Below, piece after piece: positions 12,921 through 28,756 of a stretch of 62,529 nucleotides of DNA (its first letter is position 1; the number at the start of each line of letters is the position of its first letter). Both the position numbers and the translations under genes were made by a program. The stretch spans positions 1-62,529 of IMG/VR virus record IMGVR_UViG_3300017707_001200. One strand, 5' to 3'. Under the pieces are notes generated by a model. The model was not told where the DNA came from. It ran no database searches and was given only the letters and a program-made list of their open reading frames with translations. This stretch comes from a virus. Taxonomy: Duplodnaviria > Caudoviricetes.

Positions 12921-13083
12921 CACGTCAGTCAGGCATGGAAGCCAAATCTTGCCTCAGCGGTCAAATTACGTCCGAATCCCGTATGCTTGACGCTACTCTT
13001 ATCAGGCTCGCTAGGCCAGACTGAGGACTTCGGAGAAGGTTGCAACTCTGACTGTAAGCCTGTGGCTAGGGCCAGCTTCTCCT
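12921..13083 (-). ncRNA. Predicted structured RNA downstream of the tRNA-like domain
   Basis: Complementary pairs GGAGAAG/CTTCTCC, CAGTCAG/CTGACTG, CCTCAG/CTGAGG, GTCAA/TTGAC, TACG/CGTA, AGGCA/TGCCT in a non-coding gap. Confidence 0.55.
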
Positions 13084-13085
13084 TG

Positions 13086-13185
13086 TGGACCTGTGGAGAG
13101 TCGAACTCCAGTTTCCGGAAGAATTACACGTCCGCTGGATTCCAGAAGACTTGTGCATCCCACCGGGCAAATACCCGTCAGGCCC
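13086..13185 (-). ncRNA. tmRNA-like tRNA(Ala)-mimic domain without an internal mRNA-like domain
   Basis: Acceptor GGGCCTG/CAGGTCC-A with G3-U70 and A73; T-arm TGGAG-TTCGACT-CTCCA; no D-stem; long irregular helix in place of an anticodon arm. Confidence 0.8.
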
Positions 13186-13253
13186 GTTGTGCGTTATCCA
13201 GTCGCACCCCTGGTCACCACTCGTCTCTGATCAGAGATCAAGGGTGAGTCTCT

Positions 13254-13262
13254 AGTCTATCA
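13254..13262 (-). promoter_or_regulatory. Extended -10 promoter upstream of the ncRNA locus
   Basis: TGATAGACT overlapping the ssb stop codon; same form as the late motif. Confidence 0.55.
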
Positions 13263-13562
13263 GAAAGGACTGTTATCCTCGTCAGACTGGTCCTCAATCT
13301 GCTCAAAGCGTGCACTGTTCAGGACGATATCCGCCGAGTGACGAGTCTCACCCTCCTTCTCGTAGCTACTCACCTTCGCGGAAAGAAGCCCCGAGAACTT
13401 ACCCGTGTCCCCGTCCGAGAGGCCGTGGGGTGCGTCGAAGAACGCGGTGTAGTAACTCGCCCCCTCCGTACCGTCTCGCTTGGTGAAGGTCTCCTTAACG
13501 GATGCGCCCTTCCCATCGAAGAAAGTGCGCTGGACCGTTCCGTTTACAATTGCAAATGCCAT
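13260..13562 (-). CDS. ssb: Single-stranded DNA-binding protein
   Basis: OB-fold size, acidic tail ending DEDNSPF, replication context. Confidence 0.8.
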   Translation of the reverse strand: MAFAIVNGTVQRTFFDGKGASVKETFTKRDGTEGASYYTAFFDAPHGLSDGDTGKFSGLLSAKVSSYEKEGETRHSADIVLNSARFEQIEDQSDEDNSPF

Positions 13563-13563
13563 C

Positions 13564-14499
13564 TTAGTTGTTCTCCTTCTTTTCTGTGGTTTCAAACTCA
13601 CGCAACTTCCGCTCCGCGTGTCGTGCCTGTAGTGCTCCCGTAAACAAGCCGTGTGCCGCCTGAATCTTTTCGTGGGGAATGATCTTCAACTCGCAGAACG
13701 AATCCATCCACTTCCCCTTCGAGTCCGTATCCTGCGGCCTCATATGAAGGATAGCATAGTCGCTGAAGTCTGGCAACGGCTCCTCCACCCAGTACGTTTT
13801 GCCCCATTTTTTTGTTTCATATTCTACCGCCCCAGGAAAATCAGCGGTCACTTCCCGCATCATCGCCTCAGCCGACCCCAGAGCCGAAAGCTGGCCGTAG
13901 TGGCTGGAGCGGATCGCACGACTGGTCTTCAAGTCTACCAGGTATGTTACCCCATCGATCCGGAGAATATAGTCCAGCGTTCCGGCCCAGTTCGCCCCCA
14001 CCACCGTAACCTCTGTGGCGATCACTTCCACTTCATGCTCAGCGTACCACTCCAGGAAGCGGTTCACCATCTCCACCTGTTCGTTGCGGATCAGGTCTTC
14101 GTTGAAGTAGTCGTTCAGGAAGTCGGCAACCCAGTCGTGAGTCATCGTCCCAAGCTCTGCCAGATCGTTAAGAACGCCGTTGGAGTAGTCGGTGATGTCC
14201 ACTACCGGGTCGTCAAAGTCCTTCGGCTTCATGCGGTTGTGATACCAACGCAAAAAACCGTAGCCCTGATCTTCCGTCCGGTTGAGAAGCGCATCGATAT
14301 TGGCGATTGCGTAAGCGGCAGTATTATTGACCGCCCACTGTACGATTCCCCCCTTATCCAGTGCCGAGAGAACGGTGGTTACACCCGGGACCAGAAGAGG
14401 CTTTCCATCCTCCCCGAGTCGCGTGGGGATACGGTAGCCGCTGCCCCCGTACCGGCTTGCTGCAACTCTGAGTCTAGGCTCCCAACGATCACGGGTCAC
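13564..14499 (-). CDS. PD-(D/E)XK exonuclease (RecB/Cas4-like)
   Basis: PGVTTVL, GTMTH, WAGTLD...VDLKTS...QLSA. Confidence 0.85.
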   Translation of the reverse strand: MTRDRWEPRLRVAASRYGGSGYRIPTRLGEDGKPLLVPGVTTVLSALDKGGIVQWAVNNTAAYAIANIDALLNRTEDQGYGFLRWYHNRMKPKDFDDPVVDITDYSNGVLNDLAELGTMTHDWVADFLNDYFNEDLIRNEQVEMVNRFLEWYAEHEVEVIATEVTVVGANWAGTLDYILRIDGVTYLVDLKTSRAIRSSHYGQLSALGSAEAMMREVTADFPGAVEYETKKWGKTYWVEEPLPDFSDYAILHMRPQDTDSKGKWMDSFCELKIIPHEKIQAAHGLFTGALQARHAERKLREFETTEKKENN

Positions 14500-28308: not shown

Positions 28309-28537
28309 GTACCACGTGAAAAATAAACCGATGCAACCCTGTCGAATACCGGAGTGTTCACGGAAGAAAGACCCCTGAGAATGGTTTCTTTGTCGTACTC
28401 CCCGTTAATAACGTAAAAGGTATCGCGGTTCATTTCGGCTGTTAGTCTATTCACTATCACTCCTCTCGGCGTAGCCGACGTCACAATTCCAGCATAATTC
28501 GTCGTCATTAACCAATTGCCCGCATTCACATTGCGCA

Positions 28538-28756
28538 TTATCGTACATAATAGGCCGTTCCGTTAATGTCGATAAACGAATTACCCGTGCCATTCCCCAT
28601 TGTGTCCGCATTCCAGAAACAATTGGTGCTGTCTTCGGTGGCACACGCGGGGAACGATACCCCGCCCTGTACGGGGCTAGGGCTGAGAGCGTACGCGTAA
28701 CCACCTACCAGGACCGCCGTTACTAGGGTGGCCCGTACTACGCTACGGAGCTTCAC
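28538..28756 (-). CDS. Small secreted or membrane protein
   Basis: Signal-peptide-like N-terminus; CATEDSTNCFWNA motif. Confidence 0.65.
   Translation of the reverse strand: MKLRSVVRATLVTAVLVGGYAYALSPSPVQGGVSFPACATEDSTNCFWNADTMGNGTGNSFIDINGTAYYVR

What the first reader, a model, noticed from the sequence alone, without database searches (positions are those of the whole stretch)
13086..13185. A 100-nt tmRNA-like alanine-accepting domain with no internal message
Seen (minus strand): GGGCCTG ACGGGTATTTGC CCGG...CCGG AAAC TGGAG TTCGACT CTCCA CAGGTCC A. This gives a 7-bp acceptor stem with G3-U70 and discriminator A73, a perfect T-arm, a 12-nt unpaired segment instead of a D-stem, and a long interrupted helix (CCGG/CCGG, TGCAC/GTGTA, GTC/GAC) instead of an anticodon arm. 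Established: G3-U70/A73 is the AlaRS identity, and this stem-less D region plus long helix is the SmpB-binding tRNA-like domain of tmRNA. Normal bacterial tmRNA carries about 250 nt more (pseudoknots and tag ORF) inside that helix. Inference: a phage mini-tmRNA that titrates SmpB or AlaRS, frees stalled ribosomes without tagging, or replaces tmRNA cut by host defence nucleases. It ends in CAA, so CCA must be added by the host.
Basis: partly seen in the sequence, partly recalled or inferred. Interest (0 to 1): 0.9.

Follow-up and report, generated by a model that had tools for sequence, protein, structure and literature searches.

The report
Phage tag-less mini-tmRNA gene
This phage carries a real, conserved gene for a 100-base RNA that keeps only the alanine-accepting, tRNA-like end of the bacterial ribosome-rescue RNA (tmRNA), a kind known from one mycobacteriophage but here part of a large unannotated phage family whose function is still untested.

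Summary
On the minus strand at 13185-13086 (plus CAA to 13083) lies a 7-bp acceptor stem with G3-U70 and A73, a perfect T arm, an 11-12 nt linker and a long closed helix instead of an anticodon arm. It is not chance: 0 of 100 window shuffles match its frame. All 31 pairs are kept in four Microbacterium cluster GB phages, 10 through changes on both sides.

ARAGORN and Rfam's gathering thresholds miss it. Rfam's tmRNA model gives 32.9 bits against a cut-off of 47. Pattern scans found dozens of relatives in viral and metagenome contigs with the same frame and different inner arms. Some carry a linker and junction closer to the tmRNA consensus and pass the tmRNA cut-off.

The kind is already in print. 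Mycobacteriophage DS6A has a "TLD only" tmRNA reported to inhibit tmRNA in E. coli (PMC4131195, PMC11915505). This scan has also followed up such RNAs on other DNA.

Function is inferred only. The likely route is host processing, CCA addition and alanylation, then SmpB binding that competes with host tmRNA. No RNA data exist. Verdict: a new member of a known but barely described kind.

The parts
13086..13185 (-). Whole RNA gene (positions 1-100): anticodon-less, alanine-identity tRNA-like RNA (CDS-less mini-tmRNA)
   Evidence: Sequence. Fold z-score -3.61. Rfam tmRNA 32.9 bits, E 1.7e-11. Family model R1 63 bits, the only match above 12 bits in the window. Frame pattern matches 1 time against 0 in 100 shuffles.
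13179..13185 (-). Acceptor stem, 5' strand GGGCCUG (G3 at 13183)
   Evidence: 7 of 7 pairs with 13093-13087. Identical in all 5 phages. G1-C72, G2-C71, G3-U70, C4-G69 in 13 of 13 relatives found with a pattern that left these positions free.
13167..13178 (-). Linker ACGGGUAUUUGC, the analogue of the tmRNA D-loop (GA..GG..U-rich); can alternatively form a 4-bp hairpin with 13165-13168
   Evidence: Rfam aligns GA-C-GGGUAUU to the tmRNA consensus GAucuGGaUU. Relatives with the same acceptor stem carry GGAUUUCGAC, GGGUUUCGCC or GGGUAUCGGC here. Alternative hairpin.
13115..13166 (-). Rod: long interrupted helix closed by a CUGG-AAU-CCAG hairpin, in the place of the anticodon arm (tmRNA helix P2 position)
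   Evidence: 19 pairs are standard in all 5 phages; 6 of them changed on both sides between the window and the cluster GB phages; none is broken. No 7-nt anticodon loop. ARAGORN finds no tRNA.
13111..13114 (-). 3' junction AAAC between rod and T arm (family consensus xAAC; GGAC in the tmRNA-like relatives)
   Evidence: Alignments A1 and A3.
13094..13110 (-). T arm UGGAG-UUCGACU-CUCCA
   Evidence: 5 of 5 pairs. 4 pairs changed on both sides in the cluster GB phages (CUCCG/CGGAG).
13087..13093 (-). Acceptor stem, 3' strand CAGGUCC (U70 at 13089)
13086..13086 (-). Discriminator A73
   Evidence: A in 27 of 27 rows of alignment A3 (these rows were found with patterns that fixed A73). A in 13 of 13 relatives from the scan that left it free.
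13083..13085 (-). 3' trailer CAA (no encoded CCA)
   Evidence: C follows A73 in 25 of 27 rows of A3; the next two bases vary.
13193..13198 (-). Tentative -10 box GATAAC, 8-13 nt upstream of G1
   Evidence: Inference only. Similar boxes sit at the same distance in relatives: GATAAA in the cluster GB phages, TATAAC, TATAAT, TACAAT or TACACT in other family members. The sigma-70 consensus scan found no promoter here.

Best explanation
This is a functional phage gene for a roughly 100-nt RNA that is a stand-alone tRNA-like domain of the tmRNA type. It has an alanine-identity acceptor stem, a T arm, a short single-stranded D-loop analogue and a closed helix where tmRNA carries its message and pseudoknots.

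Shown here: the gene is real, its structure is conserved, and it belongs to a large phage family.

Inferred: it is transcribed from its own promoter. Host RNase P and 3' nucleases trim it, and the host CCA-adding enzyme completes it. AlaRS charges it with alanine through G3-U70 and A73. It then binds host SmpB (and EF-Tu when charged) and competes with host tmRNA. The outcome is either a block on trans-translation tagging or rescue of stalled ribosomes without a degradation tag.

The strict conservation of the alanine identity set suggests that charging, and hence ribosome entry, matters. Simple sponging of SmpB would not require it.
For: Structure:
- 31 pairs are kept in the window and in WaterT, LeeroyJenkins, Cassita and BarnCat. 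10 changed on both sides and none is broken.
- Fold z-score is -3.6.

tmRNA likeness:
- RF00023 is the only Rfam family with a significant E-value at this spot (32.9 bits, E 1.7e-11).
- Relatives with the identical acceptor stem carry linkers and GGAC junctions closer to the tmRNA consensus. They score 54.4, 48.9, 46.8 and 44.8 bits.
- Other family members score 65 and 47.3 bits.
- The family model R1 finds the published DS6A element at 35.7 bits.

Alanine identity: 13 of 13 well-formed relatives, found with a pattern that did not fix positions 1-6 and 66-73, have G1-C72, G2-C71, G3-U70, C4-G69 and A73.

It behaves as a gene:
- It has a -10-like box at a fixed distance.
- It lies in tRNA clusters or tRNA slots in other phages.

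No message:
- ARAGORN finds no tmRNA.
- The neighbouring frame is not conserved.

Precedent: the DS6A 'TLD only' tmRNA. [quoted passage not shown] The phage has no SmpB of its own, so any SmpB partner is the host's.
Against: - There is no evidence of expression, processing, charging or SmpB binding.
- 32.9 bits is below Rfam's cut-off of 47. It is only modestly above what ordinary phage tRNAs score with the same model (24-27 bits).
- The tmRNA model finds nothing in the four cluster GB records (0 of 4). It did not report the near-identical L309 copy in a larger search.
- The linker lacks the UCGAC motif and can form a D-stem-like hairpin.
- According to PMC4131195, inhibition by a TLD-only RNA did not need charging. 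Titration alone therefore does not explain the conserved alanine identity.
- Phage Lifes, of the same cluster, lacks the element, so it is dispensable.
- The host tmRNA and SmpB could not be compared.
- The primary paper (Mao et al. 2009) is not held. What it showed is taken from two later papers.
Confidence: 0.5

Rival explanations
1. It is a cis-acting punctuation element. A tRNA-shaped structure at the head of the primase transcript would be cut by RNase P and RNase Z only to define or stabilise the downstream mRNA, as with plant mitochondrial t-elements or mascRNA. The released RNA would have no role of its own.
For: - It sits between a promoter-like box and the primase gene with no terminator in between.
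- In 15 IMG/VR loci the family member sits just upstream of the scaffold and major head genes.
- One earlier follow-up in this scan reached this reading for a similar RNA (e1-6137575).
Against: - RNase P and RNase Z need neither G3-U70 nor A73, yet these are invariant in 13 of 13 relatives.
- The rod is kept by 6 double changes, which a mere cutting signal would not require.
- The same frame occurs in three different genomic contexts.
- The mascRNA model scores only 15 bits against a cut-off of 42.5.
Confidence: 0.2
2. It is an alanine-accepting decoy or carrier that acts on something other than SmpB. Candidates are a sponge for AlaRS, for a tRNA-targeting defence nuclease, or for RNase R, or an alanyl donor for a non-ribosomal transferase.
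For: - The alanine identity set is conserved while the inner arm changes freely.
- tRNA and tmRNA fragments of about 90 nt are used by the anti-CRISPR AcrIIIA1 and bind RNase R (PMC11662646, passages).
- The linker departs from the tmRNA consensus.
Against: - No partner gene is conserved beside it. The window's neighbours are an SSB-like protein, an exonuclease and the primase.
- There is a continuum to elements closer to the tmRNA consensus.
- Nothing supports any specific alternative target.
Confidence: 0.17
3. It is the acceptor half of a two-piece tmRNA whose message lies on a separate RNA just downstream (12921-13083), docked to the rod by loop-loop pairing.
For:
- ARAGORN calls permuted tmRNAs that start at similar elements in two low-GC viral loci, L158 and L164.
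Against: - ARAGORN finds no tmRNA of any form in the window.
- Both acceptor strands are in one closed piece.
- The frame is not kept. WaterT reads on for more than 30 codons, Cassita stops after 7, and LeeroyJenkins lacks it. What is kept is a hairpin, GGAGAAG/CTTCTCC.
- In the relatives a tRNA gene separates the two parts.
Confidence: 0.04
4. It is a decaying tRNA-Ala or tmRNA remnant without function.
For: It is absent from Lifes. Gene finders miss it.
Against: - 10 compensatory double changes and no broken pair across phages whose primases are only 61% identical.
- A near-identical copy lies in a different flank (L309).
- The family is large.
Confidence: 0.03

Closest known systems
CDS-less ('TLD only') tmRNA of Mycobacterium phage DS6A (JN698994, 28478-28560; tmRNA Website tmID 11587; PMC4131195, PMC11915505)
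   Same: Phage-encoded. 7-bp acceptor stem with G3-U70 and A73, a T arm, no anticodon, no tag frame, a short closed helix, and no encoded CCA. It is unannotated in its GenBank record. The family model R1 finds it at 35.7 bits.
   Different: DS6A is 83 nt and has a 14-nt linker ending in GGUCGAC, closer to the tmRNA consensus. It scores 43.2 bits with the tmRNA model against 32.9 here. Its acceptor stem is GGGGCCG. Its inner helix is short, and its fold is no better than shuffles (z -0.86). The window's RNA has a 52-nt covarying rod and a shortened linker.
Bacterial tmRNA (Rfam RF00023), tRNA-like domain
   Same: Acceptor stem with G3-U70/A73, T arm, a GA..GG single-stranded D-loop analogue, and a helix (P2) leaving where the anticodon arm would be (alignment).
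   Different: About 270 model positions (pseudoknots, resume codon, tag frame) are replaced by 25 nt. The score is below the gathering cut-off. The UCGAC of the linker and the GGAC junction are changed to UUUGC and AAAC.
Mitochondrial (jakobid) and Mallomonadaceae plastid CDS-less tmRNAs (PMC11915505, passages)
   Same: tmRNA reduced to the tRNA-like domain, with no tag frame.
   Different: Those are organellar descendants of a resident tmRNA and act with an organelle-targeted SmpB. Here a virus adds a second, message-less copy to a cell that has a full tmRNA.
tRNA-Ala
   Same: G3-U70, A73, T arm. Phage tRNA-Ala genes are the best cross-hits of the family model in Streptomyces phages (25.1 and 20.3 bits).
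   Different: No anticodon arm and no regular D arm. ARAGORN does not call it, and tmRNA is the family reported at this spot in the Rfam scan.

Membership tests
CDS-less (TLD-only) tmRNA | 7-bp acceptor stem with G3-U70 and discriminator A73 (alanine identity) | tested here: met
   Invariant in 13 of 13 relatives found without fixing these positions.
CDS-less (TLD-only) tmRNA | T arm: 5-bp stem and 7-nt loop UUCGAnU | tested here: met
   UGGAG-UUCGACU-CUCCA. 4 of 5 pairs covary.
CDS-less (TLD-only) tmRNA | No D stem: a single-stranded D-loop analogue (GA..GG..UUCGAC) after the acceptor stem | tested here: inconclusive
   GA, GG and a U-rich run are present, and Rfam aligns them to the consensus. 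UCGAC is absent, and a 4-bp hairpin that overlaps the rod base is possible and conserved. Relatives with the same acceptor stem have motifs closer to the consensus.
CDS-less (TLD-only) tmRNA | A helix in place of the anticodon arm, closed without a message, pseudoknots or tag frame | tested here: met
   52-nt rod, 19 pairs, 6 double changes. No tmRNA or tag found by ARAGORN.
CDS-less (TLD-only) tmRNA | Alanylation and SmpB binding | not testable with these tools
   No RNA-protein or charging test is available. The window encodes no SmpB.
tmRNA, Rfam RF00023 | Score at or above the gathering cut-off of 47 bits | tested here: not met
   32.9 bits. None at gathering threshold. Family members L152, L187, L297 and L311 do pass.
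tmRNA, full length | Resume codon, tag reading frame and pseudoknots | tested here: not met
   Absent inside the rod. The downstream frame is not conserved.
Two-piece (permuted) tmRNA | Separate coding piece that carries the 5' acceptor strand and a tag frame | tested here: not met
   ARAGORN finds none. Both acceptor strands lie in one piece.
tRNA (RF00005 / ARAGORN) | Anticodon arm with a 7-nt loop, and a D arm | tested here: not met
   0 tRNA genes in the window. No tRNA match was reported at this spot. The rod tip is a 3-nt loop.
tRNA-like processing signals (mascRNA, t-elements) | Match to the mascRNA-menRNA model; use only as an RNase P/Z site | tested here: not met
   15 bits against a cut-off of 42.5. 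The processing itself is not testable here.

The most novel reading that the evidence does not exclude
The RNA is charged with alanine and, with host SmpB and EF-Tu, enters stalled ribosomes. There it adds alanine but offers no message. The phage thereby turns the host's tag-and-destroy rescue into tag-less termination, or repeated alanine addition. This would protect phage proteins made from cleaved mRNAs, for instance under attack by defence RNases. The constant alanine frame with an ever-changing inner arm would then be a modular platform whose arm docks to a lineage-specific partner.
Probability: 0.2. Interest if true: 0.8.

Novelty: new member of a known kind. Interest (0 to 1): 0.55.

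Why it matters
In the two tmRNA-database papers read here, CDS-less tmRNAs in viruses rest on a single example, DS6A (PMC4131195, PMC11915505). This element shows the kind in cultured, easily handled, lytic Microbacterium phages (cluster GB), where it is unannotated. It also ties the kind to a broad family in uncultured phages.

The family has three notable traits: an invariant alanine identity, a swappable inner arm, and placement in tRNA slots. Together these suggest that phages commonly interfere with ribosome rescue. The question becomes directly testable with a non-pathogenic host. It also marks a blind spot of standard annotation, since ARAGORN and Rfam gathering thresholds both miss the element.

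Tried and rejected
- Ordinary or intron-containing tRNA: rejected. ARAGORN finds 0 genes. No tRNA match was reported at the spot. The rod is too short for an intron and has no anticodon loop.
- Apical motif as a family signature: a 14-mer scan gave 116 loci, read as chance matches and not followed up. The 22-base version gave 0.
- Prophage or host copies: a genome-contig scan with the acceptor/T-loop pattern gave 1 locus, a split tRNA in an Oscillospiraceae MAG, judged to be chance.
- Close kin of the primase in IMG/VR: none.
- Host tmRNA comparison: not possible.
- Expression: no RNA holder is listed among 24 runs. The contigs laid show presence only. A compost contig carries a variant of the element (4 of its 8 differences listed), a soil contig holds 13085-13195 unchanged with different flanks, and another soil contig replaces 13048-13187 with 200 other letters. 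I read this as cassette-like exchange, not as evidence on expression.
- Phage-encoded helpers in the window: no SmpB, no CCA-adding enzyme domain, no RtcB.
- Partner protein beside the element (lead from e1-5801566): the upstream gene is an SSB-like protein with an acidic tip, not a small cysteine-rich protein.
- Tag frame downstream: not conserved. In the 15-locus lineage the scaffold gene has its own Shine-Dalgarno and ATG, and the short frames after the element differ.
- TLD-only element in the tRNA arrays of Streptomyces phages FlowerPower and Treat: none. The best R1 hits are their tRNA-Ala genes.
- BLAST of the L128 element against cultured phages: only tRNA hits.
- ARAGORN's 366-nt tmRNA call in L318: its 5' end does not pair with the 3' strand, so I judge it spurious.
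- Literature: searches for mini-tmRNA, tmRNA-like, tag-less tmRNA, anticodon-less and TLD-only gave 3 papers, none on such a phage RNA. The cluster GB paper does not mention it. Supplements were not opened. The tmRNA database tables of PMC11915505 may list further phage entries that I could not see.

Full report
**What is there.**
- Acceptor stem: 7 bp, GGGCCUG/CAGGUCC, with G3-U70.
- Discriminator: A73, followed by CAA rather than CCA.
- T arm: perfect, UGGAG-UUCGACU-CUCCA.
- Linker after the acceptor stem: 11-12 nt.
- Junction before the T arm: 4 nt, AAAC.
- Between linker and junction: a 52-nt interrupted helix capped by CUGG-AAU-CCAG, with no anticodon loop.

The fold is much more stable than shuffles (-41.8 against -30.9 +/- 3.0 kcal/mol; 0 of 200 shuffles as good). 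The bare frame pattern occurs once in the window and in 0 of 100 shuffles. ARAGORN finds no tRNA or tmRNA anywhere in the window. Rfam at gathering thresholds finds nothing. With permissive settings on 701 bases, tmRNA (RF00023) is the only family to reach a significant E-value: 32.9 bits, E 1.7e-11, cut-off 47. The match spans the whole model with about 270 inner positions deleted (the same).

**The genome.** The window is a complete-looking virus record of 62,529 bp with direct terminal repeats. Its primase/polymerase is 61% identical to that of five Microbacterium paraoxydans phages: WaterT, LeeroyJenkins, Cassita, BarnCat and Lifes. A paper assigns these to cluster GB and predicts them to be lytic (PMC12776033, passages). 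The element lies between an SSB-like gene with an acidic C-terminal tip and the primase gene.

**Conservation.**
- BLAST found the element in WaterT, LeeroyJenkins, Cassita and BarnCat, at the same place. It is unannotated in all four.
- Lifes lacks it.
- I mapped the helices by hand and counted them by script. All 31 pairs (acceptor 7, rod 19, T stem 5) are standard pairs in all five sequences. Ten pairs differ on both sides between the window and the cluster GB phages (rod 6, T stem 4). None is broken.
- This is one evolutionary split, so the ten changes are ten pairs along one branch, not many independent events.
- A 4-bp hairpin in the linker is also kept, with one double change. It overlaps the rod base, so the two are alternatives.
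- A metagenome contig, L309, carries the window's element with a single change (U64 to C, which turns a G-U into a G-C) in different flanks. L308 has the same promoter-like upstream sequence but an 80-nt element with another rod.
- Contigs of public runs show the same cassette-like behaviour at the element's borders.

**A wider family.**
- A scan of IMG/VR for the window's acceptor strands plus the T loop gave 4 loci with other inner arms, two of them inside tRNA clusters.
Among all 131 pattern matches in the loci then held, 35 had a perfect acceptor stem and T stem. About 0.05 would be expected if the free positions paired at random. These 35 reduce to 29 distinct sequences. I set aside 6 as artefacts: a tRNA T arm followed by the next tRNA, and one split tRNA.
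- Constrained folds show one plan in the remainder: acceptor stem, 9-11 nt linker (AC-NGG-...), closed rod, xAAC junction, T arm, A73, then usually C.
- A further scan fixed only the linker, junction and T loop and left acceptor positions 1-6 and 66-73 free. It gave 55 loci and 39 distinct sequences. The 13 with well-formed stems all have G1-C72, G2-C71, G3-U70, C4-G69 and A73. The other 26 have 5 or fewer acceptor pairs and are unrelated. These 13 fall into a few rod subfamilies, so they are not 13 independent lineages.
- The metagenome scan gave 23 loci and 19 distinct sequences.

**Is it tmRNA-like or just tRNA-like?** The window's 32.9 bits alone is weak evidence, for three reasons.
- Ordinary tRNAs of one phage score 24-27 bits with the same model.
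- The model finds nothing in the four cluster GB records.
- It hits 8 of 20 family records, with 2 over the cut-off.

The stronger argument is a continuum.
- Elements with the very same acceptor stem carry linkers such as GGAUUUCGAC and GGGUUUCGCC, and GGAC junctions, which lie closer to the tmRNA consensus shown in the Rfam alignments. They score 54.4, 48.9, 46.8 and 44.8 bits.
- L152 holds one 80-nt element at 65 bits and a second, more divergent one at 25.7 bits. L187 scores 47.3 bits.
- The window's linker, GA-C-GGG-UAUUUG, aligns to the consensus GA-ucu-GG-aUUCGAC.
- My family model R1 scores the window at 63 bits, as its only copy. It scores the published DS6A element at 35.7 bits and tRNAs at 11-31 bits.

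**Context in other phages.**
- Fifteen IMG/VR loci share one arrangement: a ~380-aa gene, the element, then the scaffold and major head genes.
- Their cultured relatives, Streptomyces phages FlowerPower and Treat (capsid 50-54% identical), carry 21-22 tRNA genes in that slot and no such element.
- The element therefore sits where tRNA genes sit.
- Many copies have a TATAAC-type box 6-13 nt upstream. The window has GATAAC there. The consensus promoter scan found nothing.

**No message.**
- What is kept is a hairpin, GGAGAAG...CTTCTCC, with a variable inside and a compensatory variant in LeeroyJenkins.
- In the relatives a tRNA gene lies between the element and this hairpin.
- The phage encodes no SmpB, no CCA-adding enzyme domain and no RtcB.

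**What is known.**
- Hudson, Lau and Williams 2014 list 'Mycobacterium phage DS6A (TLD only)'. They state that a similar molecule, chargeable or not, strongly inhibits tmRNA, perhaps by titrating SmpB, citing Mao et al. 2009 (PMC4131195, passages).
- Nawrocki, Petrov and Williams 2025 name DS6A as the earlier-reported similar form, beside the jakobid mitochondrial and two plastid CDS-less tmRNAs (PMC11915505, passages).
- I located the DS6A element at 28478-28560 (43.2 bits). It is unannotated in its record.
- Mao et al. is not held.
- Searches for other names of such RNAs found nothing relevant.
- This scan has followed up several similar phage RNAs on other DNA, mostly with the same reading.

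**Mechanism.**
- Shown: a conserved, structured, anticodon-less RNA gene with the full alanine identity set, of the tmRNA tRNA-like-domain type.
- Inferred from established knowledge: G3-U70 and A73 direct AlaRS. SmpB binds the elbow of the tRNA-like domain and stands in for the anticodon arm. EF-Tu delivers the charged complex to ribosomes with an empty A site.
- Inferred for this RNA: it competes with host tmRNA for SmpB and for stalled ribosomes.
- The published inhibition reportedly did not need charging, yet the family keeps the charging marks without exception. I therefore lean towards a role that needs ribosome entry, such as tag-less rescue or a ribosome-bound block, over pure sponging. 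This is inference.

**Verdict.** Function is untested. This is a new member of a known but barely described kind, in a convenient laboratory phage group.

Noticed in passing
L124 (Lifes) about 1339-1407 +; L308 about 826-893 -: An unannotated tRNA-like RNA with regular acceptor, D and T arms but a 5-nt 'anticodon' loop UCGCU on a covarying stem. It is shared by phage Lifes and a metagenome relative. ARAGORN does not call it, and R1 gives it 21.6 bits.
   Followed up: partly
L001 3183-3258, L002 3188-3262, against L120/L121 706-790 and L124 1203-1285: The 'tRNA-Leu(CAA)' of WaterT and LeeroyJenkins is 75-76 nt and has no long variable arm. Cassita, BarnCat and Lifes carry an 83-85 nt class II tRNA-Leu(CAA) in the same slot. 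The window has none.
   Followed up: no
window 13082-13076 pairing with 13038-13032, then GAAGTCCT (minus strand): A hairpin GGAGAAG...CTTCTCC closes the small-RNA slot in all phages of this group. Its inside is variable, and LeeroyJenkins has a compensatory variant (GGAGAGT/ACTCTCC). It is probably a leader or processing structure of the primase mRNA. The Ala-starting frame inside it is not conserved.
   Followed up: partly
L125, L127, L166, L175, L212, L223, L250, L253, L254, L257, L277, L278, L290: the ~100 nt after the element: A conserved pseudoknot-like leader (CCAG..ACCGG..CTGG..CCGGT, with covarying stems), then a hairpin with a CCCC loop. It lies between the element and the scaffold gene, which has its own Shine-Dalgarno and ATG.
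   Followed up: partly
L152 1298-1377 and 3208-3291: One low-GC (29%) viral contig carries two message-less tRNA-like domains. One is close to the tmRNA consensus (65 bits) and the other is divergent (25.7 bits).
   Followed up: no
L158 540-841 and L164 7440-7767 (minus): ARAGORN calls permuted (two-piece) tmRNAs with tags ANKIVAFSRSKVATLV and ANDMRIAA that begin at elements matching my frame pattern. In L158 a second 5' acceptor strand with a tmRNA-like linker follows 8 nt after the element.
   Followed up: no
L295 1601-1669 (FlowerPower), L296 1753-1821 (Treat): The tRNA-Ala genes of these Streptomyces phages are only 69 nt and appear to have a reduced D region. They are the best cross-hits of the family model.
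   Followed up: no
window 13260-13601 (minus): The 113-aa protein upstream has no PHROG match but ends in DEDNSPF, like the acidic tip of SSB proteins. The equivalent genes in cluster GB are annotated as ssDNA-binding proteins.
   Followed up: no
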